Virus record (IMG/VR): IMGVR_UViG_3300048886_000193
Location: 1 to 39,820 of that record
Source: a virus
Taxonomy: Duplodnaviria > Caudoviricetes
Strand: one strand, 5' to 3'
Length of the DNA stretch: 39,820 nt
The position numbers and the translations under genes were made by a program. This document shows positions 10,201-39,189 of this stretch, in pieces. The notes under the pieces are model-generated. The model was not told where the DNA came from. It worked only from the letters and a program-made list of their open reading frames with translations, and did not search any database. Each line of letters begins with the position of its first letter. Position 1 is the first letter of the stretch.

Positions 10201-13200
10201 TATTTCTCTCAGGTGCGCGGTGGGACTCCTTGAATGTGTCCAAGTTTACGAGTGGGTCTTTATCACTGACATCCAGTCTGGTATCACCCTCAGGTCTCTG
10301 TGCTAGTGCGAGATCAGATTCAGGGTAGGTGATCTCAAATAGATTGCCAGCATTGCGCGATAATTTTTTCTTCCATAGATTCTCTCTAGCTTGGCGTCCG
10401 GCTGGAACCGTATGCGGCATTTCTCTAAAACTAGGGGTTCCCTCCCCCCTCATCAGGTAAGTCCCAGCAGGTAGGGAGTCATAAAAGGCTCTGGTGAGTT
10501 TGCTAACTTCAGTATCAGGGCGGTGGGCCTCTGCTGGAAGTTCCATTATCTTCTGAGCGTCATCCATTACCTGCTCAAGAATTGTCATTTCCTTTTCGTT
10601 AAGGTTTAGTATGTCTGCCACCAACTTAAGGAGTGCCTCCCATACGCTTTGCTCTCCATATGGCAGCATCTTTGCCTCCTCATTAGGCAGTGGTCTAAGG
10701 GAGCTTACCAATGTGGAATCAAGTATCTCTCTGAATTCAGGATTGGAGAATGCCTCGGCAATGAATTCGTCAATGCTCGTTAGCCCATACCCCAATCCCG
10801 CAGGGTCAGCATTCACAAGACTCTCTGTAAGGTACACAAGTCCCGACGGTTGCTGCTCCGGAGGGCGATCCCTGATGCTGTTTATGACGGCCCTCCTAAG
10901 GTATTCGATGTTTGCTACCGCTTGCTCTGCTGTGGTTAGTTTGGTTTTCTTCGCCATGCGTACAAACAGCTCGTTCATACTGAGATCATCGCTCCGCTCA
11001 TGTGCCCAGAATGCTGGTGAGTCGGTTTTAACTTTGTCGATGGCGCGGGCCGTAGTTCCATGAGCTATTTCGTGAAGGTATATAGAGGCGTCCGTTGATG
11101 CCTGATGGCGAGATGTGATGTGAATGAAATCATCCGAAAGTCTGTAGAAGCCAAGGTGTTTCTTTCTCCTACTATCGTCTGACTTCCTGTGACGTATGGG
11201 GATAGGACTTTTGCTGTCCAGTCTAGTGCTCCTAAGCAGTTTCTTGGCCAACGCCACCACTTCCTCAGAACCTTTATCTATGATGATCTCCAATGCTTCG
11301 CGGGAATTTTTGGCTTTTTCAAGTTCAGGAATGTGCCCCAGCATACCTCTTCTTTCCGGCCCCATGATGTCTTCCCTCAACCCGTCAAACCAATCAGACC
11401 GCTCCTCATCAGTCATAACCGAGCCGTCAATGTTAACCCGCGTAGTCTCATCAAACTCAAAGACCTCGCTCGGCTTCATCAGGATGTTCTCAGTGTATTC
11501 AAGTACGTCTGGCATCTGCCTTATGGTTATCTTCTTAGTGCCGCGCTTCCCTCTGTAAGTCACATGGGTCAGGTCATATCCACCCCTAGTCTTCTCGTCT
11601 ATTGCCCAAGCGTTGAACGTCAGAATCTCTTCCAGCAGTGAACCGTCAGCAGCCTTGAGTCCGATAGCCCTTCTAATAGCCTCATATATTTCAGCAAGCA
11701 ATCCCGTCCAGCCTGATGTTACCTGCTTACCCTTGGTTCCCTTGATGCTGTTCAGGAATGATCTGGCCTCGTCGTTGAACATGGAGTGGGCCATGAACTC
11801 GTGATTGTTTGACAGGAAGTACGGGTCGATAAACTTGAAGGCGTCACCCCGTTTTCTGAATGCCCTCAATGCCCTGTTCCTTATGCGAGTAACCTCATCG
11901 TTGAACCTAGTATCGCGCACTAGCTTATCCGATGTAAGAGCGTGAAGATGTTCCTCAAGCAAGACCTTAAATGCCAAGAAGTTGTTCCCGCCCATTGCCG
12001 TTGGGTCAACTATGATCTGGTTATTAACATAGTCGTAGAACCCTCTCGGTGCTAACCTTGGGCCATCCTCGGATAACTGGGCTAGGAAAACCTGAGTGTC
12101 TGTTCTGTCGGATAGCTCCATTAAGGGGCGGAACCTATCTGCCCATCTCTTCTCTGAGGGGTTAAGGTCTGAGTAAAGCCTGTCGAATGCCTCGTAGAGA
12201 CCCATGTTGCCCTGCTTGTGGGACATCAACGGCTCTGTAAGGTCTGTGAGTTGAGTCTCCTGCTCAGGTGCTTGGGCAAATACTCCTGCTTGTTGTGCCG
12301 CTTCAGCAAATTCCTCCCTAGTCGAGAAGCCTTCCCTGTTCATCGTTAGGGTTTCATTGAAAGCAGATATTGTGTCGCGCATCAACTTTGAAGTAAACTT
12401 CTTACTGCCAACGAACTCCTTCTGCATCTTGTAGACGCCGCCCTTTTCTTCATTTGAGCTGTAAGTCCATCCGTCTACATCTGGGTTGAGTGGGAACTGC
12501 TTGCCCTCGCTTACCTCTGCATATAACTTGCGGATTTCCTGTATTGTCTCCCTCATCCTGAAGTTACGCAACTCACCGCTCTGAGCAGCAGCCATAGTGT
12601 CCAGCTTGAGTTGAAGCTTGCTTACAGTTTTTTCGTGTACCTTTTTCTTCGCCGTTAAAATACTGATTAGCTCCTTGAGGTTAGCTCTCTCCACTACAGG
12701 CTCCTCAAGTGCTGATAACTGCTTAATCAATCCTGCAACATCCCTGTCTGCGGCATCCTTCTCATCCGCATCCATTGCTCCCTGCCTCCTCTTTCTGGCC
12801 TCCCACAACTTTTCATTAACCTCTCTGTGAAGTTTTACACTCTCCGGCTTTGGCCTTGTTCTTCCCGTAGGCAACTCAACAACCTGATCTACGTCCTTGG
12901 GGAATACCCCTTCAGCTATCAGCATCTCCTTGTGGGCTTCGAGAAGGGAACTGTGGATGATCTTTGTCTTCGCGGTCATCGGCTCCACCCCAGCCTCGAC
13001 ATCCAATCTGGCTTCCCCTGCAAGAGCCTCAGGTGTAAAAAGTTTTGAAGCCTCTATTTGTGAGTGGGTCGCCTCAATGCGGGATATGATCTGGCTGTAC
13101 TTAGTGCCGTTTATCCTGTCAAGCTTCTTGGTTATCTTCTCTATCTGCTTCTTTGTCTTCCTTAGAGTGTTCCTCCACTGAGGTTCGTATTTCCTTTTAA

Positions 13201-16200
13201 TCGTTCCCGCCTCAAGAGCATGAGACCATTCAGGTATGATTATGTCAGTTATTATCCGCCTAGTTAGCTCGCTCTTCGTGCCCACCATCTCAGGGGTAAC
13301 GTCCACGTTCTCAGTGCCTATCATCCTTGTGTAAAGTGCCCTAGTGAATCGTTCTATAAATTTCCTTACCTTTACTTTGAGGTCTTCCCTCTCCGCAATG
13401 GATGATGGTGTATCACGGGATGAGTCAATGGCTTGGGCGTAAAGATTATCAACCGCTTCAGACACAACATCTAGGGTCTCCTTGTTAATGACCTCAACCG
13501 CATCATCAATCTGAACATCGGTCATGGCCATTTCCCCCGGCTCAGATGTCTCTACGCTGTGCCTGAACCTCCACCCACCGCCTCTCAGCTTCGACTTTAT
13601 GGAGGGGTCTTTCTGTGACTCAAGTATTTCCGACTCCTTCTGCGAACGGCGCATAATGTCGTAGAACTTATTCCTTAGGATAGCTTTTCCGGCAAACTTA
13701 CCTACTACCGATACAAAGTCCGGCCCTGATGGGTCTCTACCGTGCTCCCTGTGAAGATCAGCTTTCTTTCTTGCTTCATTCAGGGTGTGCAGAAACGCCT
13801 CCCATGCCGTATCAAGTGCCTTAGTCCCGCCAGCAGGGTGGCTCCCTATAAATGCAGCACCCAGTTTCGCAGCAATGCGCCTCCACGATTCAATGGGGCT
13901 GACTACTTCCTTGCGCTCCTTGGCTTGGTTGTAGACATCAACACCTTCTGGGTCTGCAAACATCCCGTAGTCATCCATTGAAAGCTCATCGGTCAGGGTA
14001 TTGTCAAAGAGAGGGTGCTGGTAGTCAATGGGTGCTCCCTCAATCCCGACTTCTTCCCTCAAGTCAGCTATTGCCTCATCAAGTTCCCCTATCTTATCCT
14101 GTAAAATCTTTGTATCCTTAGCCTCGGAACCCTTCACCCTCTTAGTGACAAGCTCCTTCCTTCTTGCTTCCAGTTTAGCCCTCTGAGCCTCAAGTTTTCT
14201 AAGGACTGCGGATGGCCCCTGCTCGGCAACTTCAACTGTGCTAATCTCCTCCGGTATGCCACTGAATATAGGCCCAGAGACAGGCTTGACACCAGCGGCC
14301 TTGTCCTTCTGAGCTGCCAGTAATTCCATTAACGCACTATCTGCCACCTCAACATCACTAAAATCAACTCCAGTCAGCTTCTCCAGCTCTTTGGTTATTA
14401 CTTTTCTCTGCTCCTTGGTGAGTGCCTCCTTGGCCATCCGGTCACCTTCGGGGTCTATACCAGTCTTTCCTTTCCTCCAGTCCAGATGCTTGGGAACTTC
14501 AGCCGCTTTGCCTTTAGCTTCTCCGACAACATCAAATTCCGGCTCCACCATCGCGCCAGTCTTCCACTCCTCAAGGGTCTTTGGCTCTTTAGGTTTAAAT
14601 CTGTCGGGGTCTGCATCCCTGATTACTTTCTGTTCAGCCTCACTCTTGGAGTCCCATGCTGCTTCAATCTTGGCGTTAACCCTGTCCACGCTCTCTAGGT
14701 AGGTTGCGTACAGTTCCTCTTCAGACTTAGGTTCCACGAATAGATCGCCCTGCAATGGAGACTCCGGCCTCTTGGCAAATGCTTCTCCACCCTCTTCGAC
14801 TGTCCCAGCACGACGCCGCTCAACCGATCTAAGGGTAACGGCGAACGCATTGATGAGTCTGGTTTCCTTTGCGGATAGATCAAGATTGTTGACCACATCC
14901 ATGAGTGACTCAGAGCCGCTTTTCCCACCATCGTGTGCGGCAAACTCCTCCTCGGCAACACCAAGTATCTCCTCTATCTTGTTGGCGGTTATGTTTTCCT
15001 TCAGTCCCTCGGTGTTCAGATACCGTAAATTATCCATTCCCTGAATAGTTCCGAACCACTCATCATCAATCCCTATGCCCTTGAGAACATTGACAGCATT
15101 CTGAGCCTCTCCCGCACCAGCCTTCTTCTCTCCCATTTCCTCCAGTTGTGCATCGGTGAGCAATTCGCCAGCCAGTGTGGGTGCTTTTGCCCTGTCCAGC
15201 GGCCTGATTACATTGCCCTCATCTGTAAGCCTTGCAGTTTCCTCAGGAGTAATTCCCTCTATGACCCTAACACCGCCGTCGCCTAAGGGCTTACCAAGCA
15301 TCTCCGTCTTAGCCCCCTCTTCGGTTTCTTTGCTTAGGTAGGTGTTTATCCTGTAGTCATTCTCGCCAACTATATGCAAGCCTCCAGCCTGTCTCTCACC
15401 CTTCTGTGTTCCCCTCTGTGCTAGACCTTCTGCGGTGGGGGCTTCGGGGCTGAGTGCTTCTTCATTGGCCCTGTTTATAGCCTTGAGTATAGACGCCTTA
15501 TCCTTGTCCGGCTTGCTTGCCCCCTCCTCGTTCTGAGGCCGCTTGCCAGTGTCGTTCATCGACTTGTAAAATTCATCTATCCGCCGCTTGTACTCTTCGC
15601 CCTGTTCCGGAGTGAGTCTCTTTTCAGCTACCTGTTGATCGACATCCATCTTCTGACCATCGGCTGGAACCTTATTCTTGAATCCTACTTCTATGCGGTC
15701 ATTGAGTGCCTTGGCGTGATCCGGAGACATATCCCTAGTAAGGTGAGCGGCTGTCATCTCGAACGGAGCCATACCCAACTCAGCAATGCCCTCAAGGAAT
15801 ACACCCTTCCAGTCATCTATCTTGCCATCCGCTAAAAGCTGTCCTGTAGCATCTCCACCCATGCCCATAGTCGCCTGAAATCCAAATGGGACAACCATAG
15901 GAGCGGCCTTCGCGGAACCCAGCAATCCCTGTTTAGCAGCCTGATTCAGCAGACCCGTCGCGGGTAGTCTCCTCGCCATTGTCCCAGCACCAGCAGCTAT
16001 TTTCGTGGCCGTAGTTGCAGCACGACCAGCCAAGCCAACAGATAGAGCATCAAAGACGCCAACAGGCAGACCATACTTGACAGCACTAGAGCGAGCTTTC
16101 TTAATTGTTTTAGGATCGTTGATGGCCTCATAAAGACGGTTAGGACTGCCCATCACTTCCGGCCCAACAGTGTTCTCCAAGACCTCGATGAACTTACCAG

Positions 16201-16879
16201 CGGCACTTAGGTTGTAGGAAGTCTTGCCCATTCCGGCAGCACCGCCCCATAGAGCACCACCACCTGCTGTGACACCTGCCAATGGGCCTCCGACAGCACC
16301 GAGAGCAGCACCAGTTCCAGCACCAGCAGCAGCACCTCCAGTAATCTTAGCCCAGCCATGATGCAGCAGTCCGGCCATTGACTCTACCGTGACCTCACCG
16401 ATGATCGCAGGAGTTTCCTTTATGCCCCAGAATTCACTCCAACTTTCCCTGAACCCGTTAGCTGACTGAAACTCCTTGAAGTGGTCGGATGTCTCAAGCT
16501 CCTGCATCTCCTTCCTGATACGGGCTATCTCAGCTACATCATCTCTCCCAAATTCAGTCTCAGGAGTTAGGGTGTCCATGACGATTTTGGCCATCTTGGA
16601 CTGTAGGACGCCGCGTCTTATCGGGTCTTTGAGGTATGTGCTCCCAAACGATCTTTCAGTAGCAGCCTTTTCCTGTACCGCCCTTACGGTGTGCCTGTCT
16701 ACGGGAGCCTTTGACCTGTCAACCTCAATCTCAGCCTCCCTCTTGTGCTTGGCAAGCTCTGGAAATCGGGCTTCGTAGGATGGGTAAGCTGCTAGAATAC
16801 CAAGAGCAACCTCCCTGTCAGTCCTTCCTTCTGTCTGATCGGGGAACTTCTTACGCCACTCATCTATAATATATTCCAT
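7217..16879 (-). CDS. Giant polyvalent virion/ejection protein (3220 aa) with two zincin-like domains and a C-terminal LPD38-like domain
   Basis: Gly/Ala hydrophobic N-terminal block; EEHLH...HEFMAH and HEIAH...DEFIAEAFSNPEF; C-terminal YIRIPR...NPAAK..EILANRNFY..PIV; last gene of the virion operon. Confidence 0.8.
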   Translation of the reverse strand: MEYIIDEWRKKFPDQTEGRTDREVALGILAAYPSYEARFPELAKHKREAEIEVDRSKAPVDRHTVRAVQEKAATERSFGSTYLKDPIRRGVLQSKMAKIVMDTLTPETEFGRDDVAEIARIRKEMQELETSDHFKEFQSANGFRESWSEFWGIKETPAIIGEVTVESMAGLLHHGWAKITGGAAAGAGTGAALGAVGGPLAGVTAGGGALWGGAAGMGKTSYNLSAAGKFIEVLENTVGPEVMGSPNRLYEAINDPKTIKKARSSAVKYGLPVGVFDALSVGLAGRAATTATKIAAGAGTMARRLPATGLLNQAAKQGLLGSAKAAPMVVPFGFQATMGMGGDATGQLLADGKIDDWKGVFLEGIAELGMAPFEMTAAHLTRDMSPDHAKALNDRIEVGFKNKVPADGQKMDVDQQVAEKRLTPEQGEEYKRRIDEFYKSMNDTGKRPQNEEGASKPDKDKASILKAINRANEEALSPEAPTAEGLAQRGTQKGERQAGGLHIVGENDYRINTYLSKETEEGAKTEMLGKPLGDGGVRVIEGITPEETARLTDEGNVIRPLDRAKAPTLAGELLTDAQLEEMGEKKAGAGEAQNAVNVLKGIGIDDEWFGTIQGMDNLRYLNTEGLKENITANKIEEILGVAEEEFAAHDGGKSGSESLMDVVNNLDLSAKETRLINAFAVTLRSVERRRAGTVEEGGEAFAKRPESPLQGDLFVEPKSEEELYATYLESVDRVNAKIEAAWDSKSEAEQKVIRDADPDRFKPKEPKTLEEWKTGAMVEPEFDVVGEAKGKAAEVPKHLDWRKGKTGIDPEGDRMAKEALTKEQRKVITKELEKLTGVDFSDVEVADSALMELLAAQKDKAAGVKPVSGPIFSGIPEEISTVEVAEQGPSAVLRKLEAQRAKLEARRKELVTKRVKGSEAKDTKILQDKIGELDEAIADLREEVGIEGAPIDYQHPLFDNTLTDELSMDDYGMFADPEGVDVYNQAKERKEVVSPIESWRRIAAKLGAAFIGSHPAGGTKALDTAWEAFLHTLNEARKKADLHREHGRDPSGPDFVSVVGKFAGKAILRNKFYDIMRRSQKESEILESQKDPSIKSKLRGGGWRFRHSVETSEPGEMAMTDVQIDDAVEVINKETLDVVSEAVDNLYAQAIDSSRDTPSSIAEREDLKVKVRKFIERFTRALYTRMIGTENVDVTPEMVGTKSELTRRIITDIIIPEWSHALEAGTIKRKYEPQWRNTLRKTKKQIEKITKKLDRINGTKYSQIISRIEATHSQIEASKLFTPEALAGEARLDVEAGVEPMTAKTKIIHSSLLEAHKEMLIAEGVFPKDVDQVVELPTGRTRPKPESVKLHREVNEKLWEARKRRQGAMDADEKDAADRDVAGLIKQLSALEEPVVERANLKELISILTAKKKVHEKTVSKLQLKLDTMAAAQSGELRNFRMRETIQEIRKLYAEVSEGKQFPLNPDVDGWTYSSNEEKGGVYKMQKEFVGSKKFTSKLMRDTISAFNETLTMNREGFSTREEFAEAAQQAGVFAQAPEQETQLTDLTEPLMSHKQGNMGLYEAFDRLYSDLNPSEKRWADRFRPLMELSDRTDTQVFLAQLSEDGPRLAPRGFYDYVNNQIIVDPTAMGGNNFLAFKVLLEEHLHALTSDKLVRDTRFNDEVTRIRNRALRAFRKRGDAFKFIDPYFLSNNHEFMAHSMFNDEARSFLNSIKGTKGKQVTSGWTGLLAEIYEAIRRAIGLKAADGSLLEEILTFNAWAIDEKTRGGYDLTHVTYRGKRGTKKITIRQMPDVLEYTENILMKPSEVFEFDETTRVNIDGSVMTDEERSDWFDGLREDIMGPERRGMLGHIPELEKAKNSREALEIIIDKGSEEVVALAKKLLRSTRLDSKSPIPIRHRKSDDSRRKKHLGFYRLSDDFIHITSRHQASTDASIYLHEIAHGTTARAIDKVKTDSPAFWAHERSDDLSMNELFVRMAKKTKLTTAEQAVANIEYLRRAVINSIRDRPPEQQPSGLVYLTESLVNADPAGLGYGLTSIDEFIAEAFSNPEFREILDSTLVSSLRPLPNEEAKMLPYGEQSVWEALLKLVADILNLNEKEMTILEQVMDDAQKIMELPAEAHRPDTEVSKLTRAFYDSLPAGTYLMRGEGTPSFREMPHTVPAGRQARENLWKKKLSRNAGNLFEITYPESDLALAQRPEGDTRLDVSDKDPLVNLDTFKESHRAPERNKGEVRAGMTLYEKFKENFVSKSALLDVFQRMVFKVNNIAGKTRLSLGEMNELQAGSTVKADRRTQKLEDDITSIIGQSSEIMETFNTASVILRTKDRLISDAKSTNVKRLRELLDKMDDTRKDGGLTEEERIELVSLLVKSKKVAGFENVTHIEAAMDAMNELKDEVNDPEMLRWKGVDDAGKPLRDSHNGILFEGKIIEATEKYNEHMQASLFDQLEAGVISPQTYNRIQSSTDYYVPFYVLKYFERNPEDTFGAFIEGVKAESFKILPPMDAGRFKLYYNQLRADRNVYMRKLDDFRMDFDPDGNFILKADTPEDADRIALAKGWDKVKMYDNGEVKYLVLDKEVAKLLNNFEPVSMSHTYNVAKQLGDIFKLGATGINFFFQLGNFFLLDPIRLLTTSKSGLRARNKGFGPIVLAHQYWKAFAASMWANITPNSIRNLVKKETGSGVYEDLYEEFINSGAAGSTIAEYFGKVSGVKDPLSAHSGSRRNPLVWVTAKLSQPGKVLEQTAKMVGLQRMKIFEGIDELADKVDKAKAGPKKIALQKELEEKMDAIAVEIRNYAGSPDFIRKGKITEHEALNVLFMFFNARVQGVERDMTRLFKMFGKDGQDRKLALTTALKLSSFAALPTMMAWSMNRRDKDREEDYDELSERDKKHYIHIPLGEKFKHPYIEGKMVADYIRIPRRESIGLFSYTLEKGLDWLYEKDPDAVGEMVSYWVESTMPVNVEGVLEGEGMMAAESIMSSMNPAAKVLPEILANRNFYRHKPIVPPSYEKAPAEHRYFATTPDIYKMLHNATTALDPLRIKHLVETLTAGGITQFLPPKDVGEGGMGRAIASTRLISRLARSTFLEETDLDKILNDEQPQEAAERLIRRRAVDEFMEMTEGMSLQDKVRHIQPPKNNASKLLNDLIIRRLREQALGLEPDEMRLKNSPVSVRSNVIIREMQGRSPAQVKVYLTDLASKKIITQDVANDIYMKLRARGESIQDYLREPVR

Positions 16880-19370: not shown

Positions 19371-20282
19371 TTAGGGCTTCGCCAGTATCCCCATACCCTG
19401 TCCCAAGGCCATCGTGCCCAACTTCGCCACACCACCGAGTATGGTTCCCATTGGATCGCTGCGATTGGCTAACTGTGCACTATACATACTTCCCTGAGTT
19501 CCAAATACGTTGGTTGCAAACTGTGCTCCCTGTGCCCCTGCGTTAGCGTTTAGCCCAAGTCCGGACATCTGCTGTGGCATGAACGGAGCCGCACCCTGCT
19601 GTGCCCCTGCAACCTGACCTAGCTGTCCCGTCTGTGGTAAACCTACATAAGAGCGAGCCATGTTCAATCTCTCACCGAGCAGTCTCCTGCCCATACCGTA
19701 CTGAGCCAGAGCTTCATCCATAGTTGGAGCAGTACCCAGCATCGCCCCTCCGCGTGCAGCAGTTGATCTCCTGAATGATTGCTCTGCGAACCTGATCTCA
19801 TCGTCAGACAGTGAGGTTCCCTTCTCAAGTTCCGCCAGTGTCACCTCGGCAAGTCTCTTCCTGACCTTGAATCCAACCGGATCGGACTCCTCAATGCGCT
19901 TAAGGGATTCGTCCATGAATGCAGTGCCGTACTTCTTCTGTATATCCAAAGCCGTCTGCGCCATAGACTCAGCACTTCTCCTCTGGCCTTCGAGTGACGT
20001 AACCTGCTGATCGAGGTCGCTTATCCCCCTGAAATCGTAATCAATCTTCCTGTCGCCTATGGACACCTGACCATGACCGCCCATCTTGGCCGCTGCCTCT
20101 ATAGCTTTTCTGGCTGGGAGACTCTCTATGTCTGCAATGACGCCCTCCCTGTTCGCTTCGGCGTAGTCGGGTGCTGGCGGGGGAGGAGGAGTGCCCTTGC
20201 ATACTGCGTCCTGTGCTGCCCACCAGTGGTTCCGATAGGCTTTGGTAATCTCCTGTGCTAATCTAAGGCAGTGCTGGTGCAT
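19371..20282 (-). CDS. Putative DNA-ejection/pilot protein (303 aa)
   Basis: KG-PPPPPAPDY N-terminal motif, Gly/Ala/Gln-rich body, hydrophobic Gly-rich C-terminus; podovirus synteny. Confidence 0.65.
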   Translation of the reverse strand: MHQHCLRLAQEITKAYRNHWWAAQDAVCKGTPPPPPAPDYAEANREGVIADIESLPARKAIEAAAKMGGHGQVSIGDRKIDYDFRGISDLDQQVTSLEGQRRSAESMAQTALDIQKKYGTAFMDESLKRIEESDPVGFKVRKRLAEVTLAELEKGTSLSDDEIRFAEQSFRRSTAARGGAMLGTAPTMDEALAQYGMGRRLLGERLNMARSYVGLPQTGQLGQVAGAQQGAAPFMPQQMSGLGLNANAGAQGAQFATNVFGTQGSMYSAQLANRSDPMGTILGGVAKLGTMALGQGMGILAKP

Positions 20283-20595
20283 TCTGTTCCTCCCATGATG
20301 TCATTGCGTTATCGTAAATGTTTCTAAGGTCGTCCCTGTCCAACTTCTCAAGATTCTCTACGCTAATAAATTTCCCGTAAAGGTCGTTCTTCCAGTATCC
20401 GGTAATGTAGACTTCAGCAATGTCCGGAGCATAATCACTAATGAATACAAACGACTTGCCAAGCGATCTGCCGTCAATGTTAAACGACTCACCCACATAC
20501 ACGCCATGAGGCACACGCTCTTCCATCAGGATGTTGGCTGTCGGAACCTTTTCCTGATACTGTCTGCCTTTAATTACTGGCCCTGATAAGTGCAT
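20263..20595 (-). CDS. Hypothetical protein (110 aa)
   Basis: Overlaps both neighbours in the late operon. Confidence 0.65.
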   Translation of the reverse strand: MHLSGPVIKGRQYQEKVPTANILMEERVPHGVYVGESFNIDGRSLGKSFVFISDYAPDIAEVYITGYWKNDLYGKFISVENLEKLDRDDLRNIYDNAMTSWEEQNAPALP

Positions 20596-30212: not shown

Positions 30213-30536
30213 TTATTGGCGAATAAGTTCGGATAGATCAGGCTCGCCATCATCCTGACTCCCGTAAAGTTCGGAGTCGGCCAGACCTTCTAGGCTTGAC
30301 ACAGCTCCTCTAAAACCATTAGCAAAACCCGCTTCAAAGGCAAGGTCTTTTTTACTCTGAATACATCGCGAGTTGATCCGTAAGGTCATGTTCGTCAACG
30401 TACCCTTAAGCTTTATACCAGTATCAGACGCCAAAAACTGACTAAACCTCTTGGCATCATCTATCTCCCATGACGGCTCATCCACCCATTCGACTGATTT
30501 AGCGAACAGAAGCATGGCCTTTATCTTTCTAAGCAT
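30213..30536 (-). CDS. Hypothetical head-module protein (107 aa)
   Basis: Occupies the usual slot between portal and scaffold. Confidence 0.7.
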   Translation of the reverse strand: MLRKIKAMLLFAKSVEWVDEPSWEIDDAKRFSQFLASDTGIKLKGTLTNMTLRINSRCIQSKKDLAFEAGFANGFRGAVSSLEGLADSELYGSQDDGEPDLSELIRQ

Positions 30537-31126
30537 ATTGTATTTCCTTTACTCATGTTTTCTTTAACCCACATGGGCTTCAAATTACTAAAGTGCCAAC
30601 AAGCGTCAACTTCCTTGGGGTTGTCGTAGTCAAATGCGCTTATTGGGATATGGTGATCCACGACCCAGACCTTCCCATAATTCTGCCAAGTCATGCCCTT
30701 CTTGAACTGAACCTCCATGTGCCTGTTTAGATGTCCCTTGTCGCATCCTATGAAGTCCATCGTGTTCTTGCTCTTCCCTCTCATTATTGAGCTTAATCTG
30801 CTCCTAAGGTTCTTAACCATTCTGGCTCTGGAGTTGCCCTTGAAATATTCTCGCCTCTTTGCATTCAGTATTTCCCTGTACGTTTTGTAGTATTTTGCCT
30901 GTCGCTCGCGGCATTCTTTCCAGTTGGCATGATAGTGCTCCCTGCGAACATCCTTAAGATGCTCCCTATTCTTCAGGTAATATTCCCGCTGCTGCTTCCG
31001 TACCCTCTCTCTGTTTTCTTCATAATACTTTCTGTTCTTCCTAGATACTTTGGCCTTGTTCTTGAGGTAATACTCCTGACTCCGCGTTAGCTTGCCCTTC
31101 ACCACCAATGGCTCCTTGACGCTCAT
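30521..31126 (-). CDS. HNH-type homing endonuclease-like protein (start uncertain)
   Basis: YY-x-x-N-R/K-E repeats followed by GMTWQNYG.VW.VDH.IP...CWHFSNLKPMW..ENMSKGN. Confidence 0.8.
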   Translation of the reverse strand: MSVKEPLVVKGKLTRSQEYYLKNKAKVSRKNRKYYEENRERVRKQQREYYLKNREHLKDVRREHYHANWKECRERQAKYYKTYREILNAKRREYFKGNSRARMVKNLRSRLSSIMRGKSKNTMDFIGCDKGHLNRHMEVQFKKGMTWQNYGKVWVVDHHIPISAFDYDNPKEVDACWHFSNLKPMWVKENMSKGNTICLER

Positions 31127-32912
31127 CCAGTAATGACTGCGCTGATTCACCGAGTTGTTTCCTCAGTTGCTTTGCCGCATTTGCATCCACCTGTTCATAG
31201 GCTTTCAGCAATTCGTCAAGGCGCATCATTACTAGCTGTTGGGTTTGCTCTGACACTTCCTCGCCACTACTCATCTTATTATCCAAATACTGTATTAGCA
31301 CATTTATCCGTAGCTCAAATTGCTCGTTACCTCTGACCGGAACTGGGAAACCCGTCTCAATGATCGAAAGGTTGTTGGCCTCTTCAAGTGCCTCATGCTG
31401 TTGTCGCATCTGTGGGTCAAGGAACATTCTTCGCACCAAGCTTGGGTCGTCCAGCTCAAGTATAGAGCGATCCAGTTCTGCCTGATTGATAAACGGTGAT
31501 CCTGCGAACAACTGCTTGCGGGTCATTGCCTGTTGCAGCTTTAGCATTCGGTTCTGACTGTCCGGCCCACCCTTCGGCTCTATCACGTAATCACCCATAA
31601 AGGCGTCCGGCTTCAGGCTACCAGTGTCTTCCCTGTACCTATACTCCAAATCCGACTTCTTGTACTGAAGGTAAAGCTCCCACGACTGCCTATACAACAT
31701 ACCCAGAGACAGTCTGAACACCCTAGCTCTTAGGTCATTCGATTCGGCCATCAGCCCACTAATCGCATTGATCTCTGTTGCTGTCCTTCTGTCGCCCCTA
31801 TCCTTCATCGACTGAACACCAAAGTCCGGCATACCAATTCTCTGCTCGGCTATCAATCTGGTTGACTGAATCTCCTCATCCCAGCTAACCGGAGGTCTTG
31901 GCATTTGAACCGGAGCCAATCCGACTGGCAATATCTGTGCGGGGGAAAGTCTGATGTTGCTGCTGTTCGGTATATCCCTGTCAGTCTGGAACATCGGCCT
32001 GTTGAATAAAGTCATCGCGTCGTGCTTGTCATTCCACATCTTACAGATAGAAGCCTCGAACGGGCCAACGATTTCACACACCCCCCTCGGAGAATACCAA
32101 CCCTTATCCTTAACCTCATAGGAGAAGTCAACAAAGGGGTAGTTGCCGTGGTTATAGTCCAGCTCCATCGGTGGCCTTAAATCCATATCGGGAACCTCTG
32201 GGCAGAAAGACTTAACCGAAACCTTACCGTCCTTCTTCTCGTAGACCTCCCAGATCACAACCTTGCCCAAGTCGGAGTGATACGTTATTCCCTCTCTCCT
32301 GTACTTATTTATCTCACTCTCCTCGCTGTTGCCCGCCTTTGCCCGCTTGGACTGTAGCAACTCAGCATCCGCATCGGAATACATTGGGTTATCCCTAAAG
32401 GAGTCTAGGCTCATCTGCATTATGTGGACGATCCGTTCCGAGTCCTGAAGAGTCTTGGTGCGATCCGGAACCACTACCATGAGGGGATCAATCGAATCAT
32501 ACTGGACGGCCTTCTTCTCAGCGTCCCAAAAAACCTTCATCACCGCACGCCCACTCATCAGGCAATGATCCACCCAAGTCAGGGCTTCGTTGAGGAAGTT
32601 GGTCTTCTCCTTGATCTGGTAGTCAAACCAACGCTCGGCAGTAACAGTAAGCCCGTTGTCCTGCTGCCTCATCGGAGCAAAGGAAGCAATGGTATCCATC
32701 CCGACCACCTGCATAAAGTAAAACGGCTTAAGCCTCTCGATAACGGCATCGGCCAGCGGGAAGTGAAGATCGCTCGCATTGCTCCACGGCTTGTTCTTTC
32801 TCCTAAGCCCCTGATGGCGCATCTCATACCAGAGTGATTGACGTTGCTCCCATCGGGTTCTGTCCTGAACGTCCTTGATTATCTTTTCGTGTAATTCTGT
32901 TCTCTCACTCAT
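31041..32912 (-). CDS. Portal protein
   Basis: 623 aa downstream of terminase; G.AVMKV.W, YPFV, RTATEI motifs of P22/podovirus-type portals. Confidence 0.88.
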   Translation of the reverse strand: MSERTELHEKIIKDVQDRTRWEQRQSLWYEMRHQGLRRKNKPWSNASDLHFPLADAVIERLKPFYFMQVVGMDTIASFAPMRQQDNGLTVTAERWFDYQIKEKTNFLNEALTWVDHCLMSGRAVMKVFWDAEKKAVQYDSIDPLMVVVPDRTKTLQDSERIVHIMQMSLDSFRDNPMYSDADAELLQSKRAKAGNSEESEINKYRREGITYHSDLGKVVIWEVYEKKDGKVSVKSFCPEVPDMDLRPPMELDYNHGNYPFVDFSYEVKDKGWYSPRGVCEIVGPFEASICKMWNDKHDAMTLFNRPMFQTDRDIPNSSNIRLSPAQILPVGLAPVQMPRPPVSWDEEIQSTRLIAEQRIGMPDFGVQSMKDRGDRRTATEINAISGLMAESNDLRARVFRLSLGMLYRQSWELYLQYKKSDLEYRYREDTGSLKPDAFMGDYVIEPKGGPDSQNRMLKLQQAMTRKQLFAGSPFINQAELDRSILELDDPSLVRRMFLDPQMRQQHEALEEANNLSIIETGFPVPVRGNEQFELRINVLIQYLDNKMSSGEEVSEQTQQLVMMRLDELLKAYEQVDANAAKQLRKQLGESAQSLLDERQGAIGGEGQANAESGVLPQEQGQSI

Positions 32913-33453: not shown

Positions 33454-33728
33454 CCTCTATACCCCATACGCCAAAGGAGCTTTGAGATATTTGATGCTGA
33501 GATGTCAACCCACTCCTCTTCGCTTGATTCCTTAATGCTTGGGTACTCAGCGTGAAGGCATTCATGGATAATAACCTCCATCCTGTACCTTCCCTTTATC
33601 TTAGGGCTTATTGTTATCGACTTCTCGTCTTCCTCCGAAGGATTATCAGAATCACAGCAAAGCCCGTCAATATCCTCAATCAGTATCTTAAACTTTCCAG
33701 TGCTGAAGTCGTGTGTTCGTATCGCCAT
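33450..33728 (-). CDS. Small zincin-like metallopeptidase
   Basis: EVIIHECLHA (HExxH) with downstream EEWV. Confidence 0.7.
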   Translation of the reverse strand: MAIRTHDFSTGKFKILIEDIDGLCCDSDNPSEEDEKSITISPKIKGRYRMEVIIHECLHAEYPSIKESSEEEWVDISASNISKLLWRMGYRG

Positions 33729-35233
33729 TATCCAGCCTCCATGCCTCCAACCCCATACTCCGAGGTGTAGGCATCCTCATTCTCCGGCCATATCAGATCA
33801 AACAGGCTCTTCCTACCGCGACGTACCGCCAAGTTGTTAATACCACCACAAGCCAAACATCCCACCAAAGCGTCAGCCCTGTCAGGAGAACTAATGCCGC
33901 GCTTCCTCATATCTTCCTTCCTCTCCAACATTAGCTTACCACTGCTATTAGTCTTACCCAATCTGGTCGTAAGCTGCTCAACAAGCATATCATCCTCCGG
34001 CAACCTGATCTCAGCCTTCTCTATCATCCTCGCAGACTCATACCACATCTCAGCACCCCTGTTGCCATAATGACGGGAATCATACGCCTTGGCTCCATTA
34101 TTAACCCTGTGCACCGTCCAACCGGATTCCATCAAGGCATCACACATCGGAATACCCAAGCCCCCAGCATCAGCATATATCTGGTCGGCTTCCAATCCGT
34201 ATTTACGATACTCCATAATAAACCTACCCACCGTCTCCATAGTGTTCCTCTCCTTCCAACACTTCATGGGCAGAACCTCGTTACCCTCCCTCACGCAAAG
34301 CACATTCTCGTCACCGCCAGCCGCAAAGTCGCAAAACGCAACCTTGCTGCCACCCTGCTTCGTCGGAGGATTGGCGTAGCAATACTGTAATGTGTTATAA
34401 GGCACCACAATATTCTCTGACCCTAAGTCCATAAACTCCCCGTAAATCATCGACCTCACTAAGGGATGCTCTATGCCCCACTTCTCCGTCTGCTCATCAA
34501 TCCAGTCCTTAGGTATGTGTGGGCAATCAAACGCCGTAACACTATGGGTGTCCCAGAAACTCGCCTCCTTGGTAAACGCCCTGTAAAAAGCACCTTGAGG
34601 GCCACCGGGACTTGACATAACCAGTAACCTACTAGGCTGACACCGCGCAATAGCCTCATAGATCGTGTCCGGAACCGTCTTAGCCTCATCAACCACCATC
34701 AAAAGGTTATCTGTCGGCCCCTGCCTATGCCAACCCTCGAACTTACCTGCATCATTCGTACTAAAACCAATCGCCCTAGACCCGTTAGCGTGCTCCAACT
34801 CATTGCTAGTGATCCTCCACCCGTCACCTAACATAGCTACATACTTCCTTAGCGAAGGCCATAGCTGATCCTCCACCTGACGCCACACCCCAGCAGTCGT
34901 AATCGTCAAGCTCTGAGGGAATCTCATCATATGCCACAGGATAGCCGCTGCTGCGACCACAGCCGTCTTCCCTGAGCCGTTCGCAGCCTTCATGGCCACT
35001 TTGCTCTCCTTGAAATTTAAGTCCCTTAGAACGCGAATTTGCCACTCATACGGCTTCATACCTAAGAATAGCTCAGGAAAGTTCTCCAAATAGGCAGCTC
35101 TCTGTACCAAAGCCGCCTTGGATAGCTTCTTATCGCCCTTCTTAGTGACGCTAGACCGTATTGTTTCCGCAGATTTCTTGGATACTTTAGCGGATTTAAG
35201 GGGTTTATTTAACTTGAGACCCGATTTTTTCAT
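33728..35233 (-). CDS. terL: Terminase large subunit
   Basis: Walker A AANGSGKT, Walker B LMVVDEA, nuclease motifs DFAAGGD and SPDRADAL; start placed at ATG 35233. Confidence 0.95.
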   Translation of the reverse strand: MKKSGLKLNKPLKSAKVSKKSAETIRSSVTKKGDKKLSKAALVQRAAYLENFPELFLGMKPYEWQIRVLRDLNFKESKVAMKAANGSGKTAVVAAAAILWHMMRFPQSLTITTAGVWRQVEDQLWPSLRKYVAMLGDGWRITSNELEHANGSRAIGFSTNDAGKFEGWHRQGPTDNLLMVVDEAKTVPDTIYEAIARCQPSRLLVMSSPGGPQGAFYRAFTKEASFWDTHSVTAFDCPHIPKDWIDEQTEKWGIEHPLVRSMIYGEFMDLGSENIVVPYNTLQYCYANPPTKQGGSKVAFCDFAAGGDENVLCVREGNEVLPMKCWKERNTMETVGRFIMEYRKYGLEADQIYADAGGLGIPMCDALMESGWTVHRVNNGAKAYDSRHYGNRGAEMWYESARMIEKAEIRLPEDDMLVEQLTTRLGKTNSSGKLMLERKEDMRKRGISSPDRADALVGCLACGGINNLAVRRGRKSLFDLIWPENEDAYTSEYGVGGMEAG

Positions 35234-35264
35234 GCTCCGATTTTGTGAGGGGGGTATATATATA

Positions 35265-35687
35265 CTATAGACGTTTGGGGGTGGGGTGGGTAGGGGTGGT
35301 CTCTTTGATTTTCTCTGGGGCCGATGCCAATGCTCTGAGCAATTCAGGTGATACCGTGCCCGTTTGGGTTTGTTTGATCTCCTGCCGTTCAGTTTTATTC
35401 CATTGAGCGTGTCGCCGTTCAAGGATTGCGATTGCGAGCTTGCCATCACGGGCTGCATTGTCGGTGGCGATCTGAAGTAGTCGGTGTTCGTGATCTGCAC
35501 TTGCCTTGTCCAAAGCTATTTTCAACGCGGGATACATACGCACCCATTTCTCGACCTGAGGCAGTGACAACTCCACGAACTTCGAGGCGGATACTAAACT
35601 CAGGCCATCTCGGATCGCATCGGTGAGGGCTTCGATCTTTTCGGCGGGAAGCGGTGGGAGCTTGGTGGGTTGTGTGATTTTCGGCAT
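35265..35687 (-). CDS. terS: Terminase small subunit
   Basis: HTH-like N-terminus and AILERR motif; directly upstream of terL. Confidence 0.75.
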   Translation of the reverse strand: MPKITQPTKLPPLPAEKIEALTDAIRDGLSLVSASKFVELSLPQVEKWVRMYPALKIALDKASADHEHRLLQIATDNAARDGKLAIAILERRHAQWNKTERQEIKQTQTGTVSPELLRALASAPEKIKETTPTHPTPKRL

Positions 35688-35724: not shown

Positions 35725-35753
35725 TTTATAGGTGAGGACAGAGAGCGAGTCAA
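35725..35753 (-). promoter_or_regulatory. Sigma70-type promoter TTGACT-N17-TATAAA for the packaging/late operon
   Basis: Minus-strand hexamers at 35753-35748 and 35730-35725, 37 nt upstream of terS. Confidence 0.7.
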
Positions 35754-35761
35754 TCGTTTTC

Positions 35762-36018
35762 CCTCGGCACAGTCCGGTTAACCAATCGGGCGGGGCGAAA
35801 GCAGCCTCCACGCATTGCGGGTCGAATCAATGACCATACTGAAGCGTGGCAGCACGTAGGTTTCCGTGAAAAATCTTGTTATGAAACCGGATTGCCTGTT
35901 AGCAGGTGGGCGCGTAATAGCGTTCGGCTTAGGCAGTTGGCAAGGGTGAATCAATAAACCTAGGGCGCAAGCCCGTTTGCCGATACTGCCGAGGCCATCC
36001 ACTAGAGCCATCATGAGC
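35762..36018 (+). ncRNA. Structured RNA, 5' domain (no family recognised)
   Basis: Closing stem CCTCGGCA/TGCCGAGG with at least six internal stems, many G-U pairs and a GCAA tetraloop. Confidence 0.7.
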
Positions 36019-36039
36019 ACAACCAAAAGGTAAAATATC

Positions 36040-36435
36040 ATGACGGAACTATTCACATTCGAAGAAAAAGTAGAAACCACTGAAACGGAAACAGTTAGCC
36101 AAGACAAGTTGACAGGGCCGCAAGTGACGGTCGTTTGCGAGAAGATCAGGAACTCAGATGATTACGATTCTGGGTTACTGCTCGCGATGGAAGTCACTGG
36201 CGACGTAACCAAGGCGCAAGCTATTAGATTAGCGACAGCCTTAGAGAAGTTACAGGAACGGCTCGAAAAGGAAGCGGCCACCAAGGCTGAGAATGAGGCA
36301 AAGCTGGCGGCATGGAATGAGCGCAAAAAGGAAGTGACTCGGTTCCATGTTAAGTTCGGCACACCTCAGGAGTATTCGGAGGAATTCCTAAACAGAATGA
36401 CAACGGATCAAGTGTTAAGCAGTAAATTAGTCTAA
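36040..36435 (+). CDS. Hypothetical protein (131 aa) enclosed by a 26-bp RNA stem
   Basis: AAAGG RBS; coiled-coil segment. Confidence 0.8.
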   Translation: MTELFTFEEKVETTETETVSQDKLTGPQVTVVCEKIRNSDDYDSGLLLAMEVTGDVTKAQAIRLATALEKLQERLEKEAATKAENEAKLAAWNERKKEVTRFHVKFGTPQEYSEEFLNRMTTDQVLSSKLV

Positions 36436-36442
36436 TCAATCC

Positions 36443-36563
36443 GCTCATGGTGGTTCTAGTGGGTGGCCAACGGTCACAAAACAATTTGCCAGTTGAAGGG
36501 TAAGAATAACTCAAGCCCTATGGCAAAGCTGCGCTGGATAGCGTGGAAACATAGCAAGTAGAG
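36443..36563 (+). ncRNA. Structured RNA, middle domain
   Basis: 3' arm of the 26-bp stem; TTTGCCA/TGGCAAA, AGGG/CCCT and GCGCT/AGCGT stems. Confidence 0.6.
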
Positions 36564-36573
36564 GGTACATAAA

Positions 36574-37371
36574 ATGGATACCAAAGTAAATGAAACCCCT
36601 AGTGTAGATGTAGAACCAGTGAAAACTGTTGGTCTATATGAGGAAGTCAAGAAGGACAGCAATGACGAGTGGTCGGGTTCAACGTGGACTGGATCGCTCG
36701 CTGCATTAAAGCCGGATCAGTTGGATCAATTATTTGATACCGACAACATCCACGCCGTAATGCAGGAAGTTATCAGGTTCGCATATGACGGCACGCCCGT
36801 TGATGAAAAGCTGATGGAATCAAATAATGCTGGCTGGATTCTGAATCCTACGGGTGCACAGGTCGAGGCCTTAAATATTGGGTCATTTGATCCGAAGGGC
36901 TTGAAGAGAGCCGCTAAGGCAATAGACTTGGAACACCGCAAGATCACCAAGGACAAGGACGGCAATGTCTCTGTCTGGCGTGAAGCTAAGGACTCAGACG
37001 GCAAGCCCATTATTGTCTGGAACTCTAAGACAAGTGAGACAGAGAATAAAATGGAATGGAGCAAGGACGGCAAGACGTTATTTTCCGCCAAGGATATGAC
37101 AAATTGCTATAACTTCGTGATCCATGCCAATGGGATGTTGAACTTGGAGCCTCAGTATGATGTTGAGCAGAGGAAGTTCGTCGCAGAAGGTGGACGTACC
37201 GTAACGCTCAAGAAGAACAAGAAGTCCATGACTCGTACACTTCAGAAGCCCACCAAGGGTAAGAAGAAGACTACGATCAAGGGCTACGAGTTCACAGCAG
37301 AAGAGCTGGAGAATCTAGTCGCCAATGCACAATCGCGTGGTGAGCTAGGGGAACAGCAAGATAATCAGTAA
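36574..37371 (+). CDS. Hypothetical protein (265 aa), acidic N-terminus and Lys-rich C-terminal part
   Basis: GAGG RBS; long ORF. Confidence 0.85.
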   Translation: MDTKVNETPSVDVEPVKTVGLYEEVKKDSNDEWSGSTWTGSLAALKPDQLDQLFDTDNIHAVMQEVIRFAYDGTPVDEKLMESNNAGWILNPTGAQVEALNIGSFDPKGLKRAAKAIDLEHRKITKDKDGNVSVWREAKDSDGKPIIVWNSKTSETENKMEWSKDGKTLFSAKDMTNCYNFVIHANGMLNLEPQYDVEQRKFVAEGGRTVTLKKNKKSMTRTLQKPTKGKKKTTIKGYEFTAEELENLVANAQSRGELGEQQDNQ

Positions 37372-37372
37372 A

Positions 37373-37545
37373 TTCTACGTGCTGGTTAAGTCATGATAGC
37401 GGGTGCAGATAAATACCTACCTGTATCCGTACAACAGCGGCGTCAGTAATGGCGATCCGCCGAGTAGGTACGCAGCCAGTAAAATGGTTGTAACGGGGTA
37501 ACGTGCCGGTTAGGGAACTACGCCCTAGCTAACGGAGTGATAGAC
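37373..37545 (+). ncRNA. Structured RNA, 3' domain with pseudoknot
   Basis: 10-bp stem 37399-37408/37421-37430 whose loop TACCTAC pairs with GTAGGTA at 37464-37470; three further hairpins. Confidence 0.7.
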
Positions 37546-37583
37546 GGGGAGTGGCTGAGAGAAATCTTGGCTGCTCCCCTTTT
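37546..37583 (+). terminator. Rho-independent terminator
   Basis: 15-bp stem with G-U pairs, GAAA loop, followed by TTTT. Confidence 0.8.
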
Positions 37584-38688: not shown

Positions 38689-39189
38689 CCTGTTTCTCAA
38701 TACAAACTCTCCAGCTTTCTCCCAACATCTCCACAATACTCACGAGAGAATAGAATAGAATAGAATAGAGTAGAATAGAATAGATTATATACTATACACT
38801 CACAAGGATTAAGAAGCAGAGGAAGATGATCCATACCGCTATACCTATAAGCACAGATAGGGCATACTCGCAGCTATCCTTTAGGTTCATCGGGATTTCT
38901 TTAACTTCCAAGCAACAACACCCAAGGAGGCAGCGATAGCAACTTTACACAGAGTGTCTAACACGGCCATGCCCAAACCCATCCAGTTAATAAGTTCATA
39001 CAACATACTTGTTAGACGGTACAACCTGTGAATAAGTTAAACAAATCTTACACCTCCGTCGAAGCCCGCAACCTCCTTTCAAAACATAAGCAGCGGGTAT
39101 TCTAATTCGGCGGGGGATATTTTAACGATCAGCAATGGGTGACAAAATCTGTTGTCGATCACAAACAAGGAAAAACGGAGGAATAAACT
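38689..39189. other. Candidate replication origin region
   Basis: 500-bp gap with no ORF of 60 aa or more, containing the phased repeats and a consensus DnaA box (TTATTCACA, minus strand, 39027-39035). Confidence 0.5.
38708..38788. repeat. Phased CTCC x3 + ATACTCAC + (TAGAN)-type pentamer x8 element, copy B
   Basis: TCTCC at 38708, 38718, 38728; ACTCA at 38738; pentamers at 38746-38785. Confidence 0.9.

What the first reader, a model, noticed from the sequence alone, without database searches (positions are those of the whole stretch)
35762..37583. Candidate new system: a ~1.8-kb structured RNA carrying two ORFs in its loops
Seen: all three non-coding segments (35762-36018, 36443-36563, 37373-37583) are densely paired, with G-U pairs that work only on the plus strand. 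They are linked by long-range helices across the ORFs, and the unit ends in a terminator. I recognised no family for either protein. Inference: one transcript folding into a ~600-nt RNA core with two mRNA inserts. It could be a large phage ncRNA/RNP (comparable in scale to GOLLD or ROOL), an unrecognised intron or ribozyme, or a scaffold that stabilises the first early mRNAs; the proteins may be its partners.
Basis: partly seen in the sequence, partly recalled or inferred. Interest (0 to 1): 0.9.

Follow-up and report, generated by a model that had tools for sequence, protein, structure and literature searches.

The report
Phage RNA folded around two genes
A small group of uncultured phages carries a previously uncatalogued folded RNA of about 400 bases whose helices close around one or two protein genes and are kept by compensating mutations, and it likely acts as a gate that lets transcription read on into the phage's replication genes.

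Summary
Eleven hand-picked lineages of one podovirus-like clade keep the unit terS | RNA-ORF1-RNA-ORF2-terminator.

Two long-range helices persist while their sequence turns over. P8 (23-29 bp) brackets ORF1 in 11 of 11 lineages. P4 (7-10 bp) ends beside the ORF2 ribosome site and beats shuffles in 10 of 11. The 5' domain covaries strongly (25 of 40 pairs change on both sides; 0 of 500 shuffles) and has conserved loops.

A third helix across both ORFs exists in only 6 of 11 and excludes a universal small hairpin, so it looks like a switch. Most of the 3' segment is optional. The conserved core is about 360-430 nt, not 600.

There is no Rfam match. ORF2 is a clade-restricted family with a confident model and no fold match.

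Best reading (about 35%): an RNA-plus-protein device controlling read-through of the terminator, like conAn or put. Rivals: an RNase III-matured multi-piece RNP (25%) and translational autoregulation (20%). No transcript data could be obtained.

The parts
35265..35687 (-). terminase small subunit gene, divergent neighbour in every homologous locus long enough to show it
   Evidence: phrog_4102 E 3.7e-12; synteny
35725..35753 (-). predicted sigma-70-type promoter facing terS (-35 box, 17-nt spacer, -10 box); no such promoter found for the plus-strand unit
   Evidence: pattern found in 11 of 13 loci examined; top PWM score in the window, 19.7 against 12.8 next, from a PWM that includes this site
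35759..36039 (+). segment 1: 5' structured domain (P1/P1a, P2/P2a, S1, P5, P6, P7) plus 5' strands of P4 and P8
   Evidence: alignments A5-A8; covariation; model R1 128.8 bits
35808..35849 (+). P2 helix with conserved internal loop and P2a hairpin
   Evidence: 99% of cells paired, 5 of 6 pairs change on both sides
35853..35868 (+). S1: 4-5 bp hairpin with a near-invariant 7-8 nt loop; the loop can pair with 35883-35888 (predicted pseudoknot S2)
   Evidence: present in 18 of 18 rows, 7 sequence types; S2 has no both-sided change
35875..35883 (+). P4 5' strand (pairs 36550-36558)
35932..35990 (+). P7 domain with conserved A-rich loop 35948-35957 and a side hairpin
   Evidence: folds in 11 of 11 lineages; alignment A8
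35993..36018 (+). P8 5' strand (26-bp helix bracketing ORF1)
36040..36435 (+). ORF1, 131 aa (76-131 aa and poorly conserved across lineages), in the loop of P8
   Evidence: 18 synonymous against 4 non-synonymous codon changes versus L185; alignment A4
36443..36468 (+). P8 3' strand, 7 nt after the ORF1 stop
36550..36558 (+). P4 3' strand, 15 nt before the ORF2 start codon
36574..37371 (+). ORF2, 265 aa, clade-restricted family, likely RNA partner
   Evidence: 15 clusters at E<=1e-30 among 1.84 billion proteins; model pLDDT 80; no fold match
37374..37384 (+). P3 strand: pairs 35850-35860 across both ORFs and excludes S1; 6 of 11 lineages
37399..37545 (+). optional structured insert, only in the window and its nearest relatives
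   Evidence: absent in L185; no other copies
37546..37583 (+). predicted intrinsic terminator; next co-oriented gene 29 nt later
   Evidence: terminator-like hairpin plus U-run in 16 of 16 loci

Best explanation
This is a conserved, covarying RNA structure of about 400 nt built around ORF1, and it likely works with the ORF2 protein as a cis-acting gate that decides whether RNA polymerase reads through the terminator after ORF2 into the phage's replication and recombination genes. Shown from sequence: the helices, their covariation, the conserved loops, the terminator, the co-oriented genes just behind it, and the mutual exclusion of S1 and P3. Inferred steps: (1) the unit is one transcript; (2) the 5' domain folds first, and P8 and P4 close only after ORF1 and the spacer are made, so the core is complete while polymerase crosses ORF2; (3) the core, stabilised by ORF2 protein, would contact the elongation complex as put and conAn2 RNAs are thought to; (4) without protein, the P3 strand made just after the ORF2 stop would strip S1 in the lineages that have it, and transcription would stop; once ORF2 accumulates, read-through would follow.
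For: The unit heads a co-oriented arm of about 11 kb holding RusA, ERF, exonuclease and DnaA-type HTH genes, reading across the window's ends. A strong terminator follows ORF2 in 16 of 16 loci; the next gene starts 15-34 nt after it in 11 of 16 (80-265 nt in 3, none found in 2), and the PWM finds no promoter there in the window. RNA core and ORF2 co-occur in all long-enough loci with terL >=79% identity and are both missing in relatives at <=63%. S1 is universal but weak (-3.0 to -6.7 kcal/mol), and P3 (-15.5 to -20.3) would displace it in 6 of 11 lineages, starting -2 to 10 nt from the ORF2 stop; this suits a transient, co-transcriptional role. Precedent: conAn systems sit at the start of an operon and pair a protein with a 260-600 nt RNA; the pLS20 RNA is flanked by a 20-bp inverted repeat (PMC8191782, abstract and passages).
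Against: No transcript, read-through or binding data. No plus-strand promoter was found for the unit itself, so the lack of one after the terminator is weak evidence. P3 is absent in 5 of 11 lineages that keep the same terminator. The terminator arm has no conserved pairing partner in the core (p 0.86), so a simple attenuator is excluded and only a polymerase-bound mechanism remains. In conAn the protein gene precedes the RNA; here both lie within or after it. A 23-29 bp uninterrupted P8 looks more like an RNase III substrate than an antiterminator needs. ORF2 is not basic overall (pI 5.2-8.7).
Confidence: 0.35

Rival explanations
1. A stand-alone phage non-coding RNA or RNP: the transcript ends at the terminator, RNase III cuts P8 and frees ORF1 like an intervening sequence, and a two-piece core held by the P8 stub and P4 acts in trans with ORF2.
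For: P8 is 23-29 contiguous bp in 11 of 11 lineages, close to the 28-bp RNase III-cut stem of the Coxiella IVS (PMC4990558 passages). ORF1 varies in length and sequence. 30 unpaired model columns are >=90% conserved, some of them helix strands left out of the model. Non-coding segments are better conserved than ORF1 between window and L001 (226/229, 122/125, 211/212 against 370/396). The 3' end is defined by a terminator.
Against: The universal S1 hairpin would be destroyed by P3 in the finished transcript of 6 of 11 lineages. It does not explain how the downstream genes are expressed. The core is smaller than GOLLD (many over 800 nt).
Confidence: 0.25
2. Translational autoregulation: ORF2 protein binds the S1/S2/P4 knot on its own mRNA and blocks its ribosome site, while ribosomes reaching the stop codons open P8 and P3, coupling the two ORFs.
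For: P4 ends 8-20 nt before the ORF2 start; P8 and P3 begin 7-16 and -2 to 10 nt after stop codons. All are within a ribosome footprint (own knowledge). Pseudoknot-dependent translation control by alternative folds is known (timP, PMC11228461 abstract and introduction).
Against: P1, P2, P5-P7 and their conserved loops are far more than an operator needs. S2 has no both-sided change.
Confidence: 0.2
3. Plain processing or stability stems that protect the first mRNAs, with no further function.
For: P8, P4 and P3 each join the flanks of an ORF. Similar gene-bracketing stems were noted in other phages by earlier, unchecked reports.
Against: It does not explain the multi-helix 5' domain with conserved loops or the S1/P3 exclusion.
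Confidence: 0.08
4. An unrecognised ribozyme or self-splicing intron that releases the ORFs.
For: The order S1 hairpin, A-rich linker, P4 strand, pseudoknot strand echoes pistol P1, P2 and pseudoknot (PMC6154101 passages; the linker is recalled).
Against: No Rfam hit at the gathering threshold in the window or 11 homologous loci, and only noise at E<=10. There is no P3-like helix or fixed-length junction before the P4 3' strand. No group I or II core motifs were seen by eye (recalled motifs). ORF2 has no nuclease or RT fold match.
Confidence: 0.06
5. The structure forms in single-stranded DNA (origin or packaging signal next to terS).
For: It lies at the strand-switch point beside terS.
Against: One-sided G-C/G-U changes and UUCG/GNRA-type loops; helices placed exactly at stop codons and ribosome sites; plus-strand bias under RNA energies.
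Confidence: 0.03

Closest known systems
conAn bipartite antitermination system (pLS20 and other Gram-positive conjugative elements)
   Same: Large RNA plus a poorly conserved protein at the start of a long operon, ahead of an intrinsic terminator; the pLS20 RNA is flanked by a 20-bp inverted repeat (PMC8191782 passages).
   Different: Here a phage; ORF1 lies inside the long helix and ORF2 after the core; no Pfam match of ORF2 to any family; antitermination not shown.
HK022 put RNA and lambda N/nut
   Same: RNA element in the first transcript of an arm, upstream of a terminator that precedes replication genes (put from PMC8191782 discussion; N/nut recalled).
   Different: put is much smaller and acts alone; no Rfam hit to any family; no boxA/boxB seen by eye (recalled motifs).
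ORF-bearing intervening sequences of 23S rRNA (Coxiella helix-45 IVS)
   Same: An ORF closed into a loop by a long near-perfect stem inside a larger structured RNA.
   Different: The host RNA is not rRNA; ORF1 is under purifying selection; cleavage untested.
GOLLD and ROOL large phage RNAs
   Same: Phage-encoded, multi-helix, covarying RNA of unknown function.
   Different: No Rfam match; about half the size of GOLLD; no tRNA in the window; a fixed protein-gene companion, whereas ROOL has no known protein partner.
Pistol ribozyme
   Same: Hairpin whose loop forms a predicted 6-bp pseudoknot beyond a second helix strand.
   Different: No Rfam hit; P3 and the fixed cleavage junction are missing; pseudoknot not supported by covariation.

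Membership tests
conAn | RNA plus protein at the start of an operon upstream of terminators | tested here: met
   (layout only)
conAn | protein homologous to ConAn1, gene upstream of the RNA | tested here: not met
   gene order differs; ORF2 family confined to 15 clusters; no direct comparison with ConAn1 was run
conAn / put | processive read-through of terminators in cis | not testable with these tools
   needs reporter or in vitro transcription
GOLLD / ROOL / OLE | match to the Rfam covariance model | tested here: not met
GOLLD / ROOL | often near tRNA islands | tested here: not met
   0 tRNA or tmRNA in the window
rRNA IVS | ORF closed by a long terminal stem | tested here: met
   P8 23-29 bp in 11 of 11
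rRNA IVS | located in rRNA | tested here: not met
   no rRNA match
rRNA IVS | excised by RNase III | not testable with these tools
   no RNA data
Pistol ribozyme | P1-loop pseudoknot of six pairs | tested here: inconclusive
   4-7 bp possible, register varies; 75.5% paired, no both-sided change
Pistol ribozyme | P3 stem and fixed-length cleavage junction between P3 and P2; Rfam model | tested here: not met
   variable hairpins precede the P4 3' strand; no hit
Group I / group II intron | catalytic core matching Rfam models | tested here: not met
Group I / group II intron | intron-encoded nuclease or maturase | tested here: inconclusive
   no Pfam family; best fold match Z 4.5 to an unrelated chain
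tmRNA (one- or two-piece) | tRNA-like domain and tag frame | tested here: not met
   ARAGORN 0 genes; Rfam none
Classical attenuator or riboswitch platform | conserved antiterminator pairing with a terminator arm | tested here: not met
   no fixed site in 10 lineages; 5'-end test p 0.86

The most novel reading that the evidence does not exclude
A new class of RNA device whose structure is assembled across its own genes: helices that close only when each ORF has been transcribed, and open when ribosomes reach the stop codons, let the RNA sense how far transcription and translation have gone. With a protein of new fold it switches the phage's replication arm on, or matures into a multi-piece RNP.
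Probability: 0.3. Interest if true: 0.88.

Novelty: new variant of a known kind. Interest (0 to 1): 0.72.

Why it matters
Only a handful of RNA-based processive antiterminators are described (put, EAR, conAn, per PMC8191782), and large phage RNAs such as GOLLD and ROOL still lack functions. Here a new covarying RNA comes with a fixed protein companion of unmatched fold, a defined terminator and natural variants with and without the switch strand, so it can be tested directly in vitro. It also shows that RNA searches limited to single intergenic regions (candidates of 29-151 nt in PMC10690425) would miss or fragment RNAs built across genes.

Tried and rejected
Rfam: nothing at the gathering threshold in the window or 11 homologous loci; only noise at E<=10. 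ARAGORN: none.

ORF2: nothing significant in Pfam or PHROGs, the ESM Atlas, annotated phages or PDB sequence. One search gave prion-protein rows at E>=0.012, treated as chance. Fold searches: best Z 4.5, no Foldseek hit at E<=0.001; this does not prove a new fold. ORF1: one homologue by search, Atlas blank.

A motif scan of viral contigs returned 119 loci, of which only 4 (L023, L047, L094, L100) were true homologues. Scans for the two optional inserts found no copy outside the clade. Model R1: 0 of 151 genomes and ORF2 0 of 401 genomes sampled from the phylum of G001; not found in those searched. Segment 1 has no blastn match in GenBank phages.

No RNA holder was listed; this is no evidence on expression, and no reads could be laid.

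Pairing of the P2 internal loop with the P5 loop was rejected by eye: it does not covary (alignment). A second, earlier partner for the outer end of P8 exists in the folds of most lineages but reaches p<0.05 in only 1 of 11 (126), so it is a lead only. A direct antiterminator pairing was rejected. No virion RNA polymerase motif or PDB match was found in the 3220-aa protein. The ORF1-ORF2 complex was not predicted (no job ran), so binding is open.

Literature searches listed nothing describing this RNA. In PMC10690425 four motif terms were absent from 6 searchable supplements, but files 1, 2 (alignments) and 4 could not be searched, so fragments may be catalogued there.

Full report
Setting. 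The window is a 39.8-kb virus record, 95% complete. It looks like a podovirus: terL 33728-35500, terS 35265-35687, SU10-type portal, major head protein and a 3220-aa LPD38 protein on the minus strand; RusA, ERF, exonuclease and a DnaA-type HTH on the plus strand. The finding is the first unit of the plus arm, back to back with terS. The only host hint is a terL relative at 52% identity in a Verrucomicrobiota MAG, which lacks the RNA.

Observation. Folding the 1.8 kb with the ORFs forced unpaired, and without constraint, both give the long helix around ORF1 and the 10-11 bp helix across both ORFs. Segments 1 and 3 are more stable than shuffles (z -2.5, -3.8); segment 2 alone is not (z -0.5). 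Both ORFs are under purifying selection: 18:4 and 15:9 synonymous to non-synonymous codon changes against L185.

Homologues. ORF2 and terL searches gave the same unit in phages whose terL is 79-97% identical. Relatives at 63% or less lack both RNA and ORF2. I chose 11 representatives by hand (window, L188, L176, L182, L180, L144, L133, L178, L198, L200, L203) and left near-duplicates and truncated loci out of the counts. L178/L198 and L180/L144 are sister groups, so there are fewer than 11 independent lineages, and L203 is cut at its 5' end. ORF2 identities to the window are 29-58% in alignment A3. ORF1 is 76-131 aa and barely alignable.

Long-range helices. I compared each lineage's strands with its own partner, with other lineages' partners and with shuffles. 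P8: 0 of 300 shuffles reach the observed energy in 11 of 11, the own partner ranks first in 9 of 11, permutation p 1e-5; it is 23-29 contiguous bp. P4: at most 14 of 300 shuffles in 10 of 11, L203 failing (142 of 300); own partner first in 8 of 11; p 1e-5. P3: present in 6 of 11 (window, L182, L133, L178, L198, L203; 0-4 of 300 shuffles) and absent in L188, L176, L180, L144, L200; p 0.005. For L176 and L200 that script took too long a 5' window; one search repeated the test with the right strand and still found no P3.

5' domain. On the MAFFT alignment A6 (17 rows), 86.6% of cells pair and 25 of 40 pairs change on both sides; 0 of 500 shuffles match this, and slid controls give 37-49%. The structure was drawn on one of the rows and rows are related, so these controls overstate significance. 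S1, a 4-5 bp hairpin with a near-invariant loop, is present in 18 of 18 rows in 7 sequence types. Its loop can pair just 3' of the P4 strand to make a pseudoknot, but those six pairs show no both-sided change and share a base with P4, so the pseudoknot is predicted only. P7 with an A-rich loop folds in 11 of 11. Segments 1+2 total about 360-430 nt (10 full rows) and fold better on the plus strand in 11 of 11.

Segment 3. Only the P3 strand (in some lineages) and the terminator recur. The window's 37399-37545 is missing from L185. A different element of about 125 nt sits after ORF2 in L176 and L174, is absent from L179 and L177, and sits before the core in L194 but not L199.

The switch. P3 uses the 5' strand and part of the loop of S1, so the two exclude each other. 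P3 is 10-17 kcal/mol stronger and starts within 10 nt of the ORF2 stop. A universal element that the finished transcript destroys in half the lineages suggests a role while the RNA is being made or translated (inference).

Terminator and promoters. A terminator-like hairpin with U-run follows ORF2 in 16 of 16 loci; the next co-oriented gene starts 15-34 nt later in 11 of 16. The one strong sigma-70-type site in the window faces terS and is conserved. I found no promoter for the plus unit or after the terminator, and no conserved pairing of the terminator arm with the core.

Proteins. ORF2 forms 15 clusters at 50% identity among 1.84 billion proteins (the sixteenth hit is a weak repeat match). 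With 12 sequences AlphaFold2 gives pLDDT 80 and pTM 0.68. Foldseek and VIA-align find nothing above noise. RNA binding is inferred from co-occurrence only.

Mechanism. I commit to a polymerase-directed RNA-protein gate at about 35%, on position, terminator, gene spacing, co-occurrence and the S1/P3 exclusion, with conAn as precedent (PMC8191782: abstract, outline and passages). An RNase III-matured RNP (25%) is favoured by the perfect P8 (PMC4990558 passages). Translational autoregulation (20%) is favoured by helices abutting start and stop codons (PMC11228461 abstract and introduction). No RNA run was listed, so none of these is tested. That the sequence encodes a selected RNA structure is much more certain, about 95% by my judgement.

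Comparison. It is not a member of any Rfam family, nor tmRNA. It is smaller than GOLLD (10.1101/2024.12.08.627333 passages) and only topologically reminiscent of pistol (PMC6154101 passages). Eight literature searches listed no description (listings and abstract starts only, apart from the six papers named). The alignment supplements of PMC10690425 (passages and 6 supplements seen) could not be searched and may hold fragments. Earlier unchecked notes of this scan report gene-bracketing stems in other phages but nothing like this sequence. Lambda N/nut, intron core motifs, tetraloop classes and ribosome footprints are recalled knowledge. Helix names P1-P8, S1 and S2 are my own labels.

Verdict. 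A real, new RNA family with a new protein family, confined to one small phage clade, with a testable but unproven mechanism. Interest 0.72.

Noticed in passing
L194:2271-2401; L176:3795-3925; L174:3795-3926: A structured element of about 125 nt, closed by a covarying 9-bp terminal helix, is found before the core in one lineage and after ORF2 in another and is absent from close relatives of both; it looks mobile. No Rfam hit; it has part of a hammerhead-like core word (recalled) but not the rest.
   Followed up: partly
window 37399-37545: The optional insert has a hairpin loop (about 37416-37422) complementary to about 37463-37469, a possible pseudoknot, and carries a strand like the P3 strand of lineages L182 and L195. 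No relatives outside the nearest genomes.
   Followed up: partly
L182:3750-3830: The terminator stem carries an extra branched insertion of about 50 nt that L195 and L201 lack.
   Followed up: no
window 35725-35753 (-): The only strong sigma-70-type promoter drives the packaging and structural arm, about 40 nt before terS, and its -10 box lacks the usual final T; how it is kept off early is unexplained.
   Followed up: partly
L004:3850-4545 (-) and kin: In this lineage the terS frame stays open upstream through the reverse strand of the RNA's 5' domain (209-231 aa), although the conserved terS start is internal; likely a by-product.
   Followed up: no
window 20263-20595 (-): A riboflavin-kinase-like gene (PF01687, E 2e-7) among structural genes.
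   Followed up: no
window 7217-16879 (-): 3220-aa polyvalent protein with an LPD38 domain, no PDB sequence match and no RNA polymerase motif found.
   Followed up: partly
window 38750-38790; L006:6510-6545: A short tandem run of a 5-nt purine-rich unit followed by an AT-rich stretch is conserved in relatives downstream of the unit; possible origin or binding array.
   Followed up: no
window 30521-31150 (-): Endonuclease VII/HNH-like gene between portal and scaffold-like genes.
   Followed up: no
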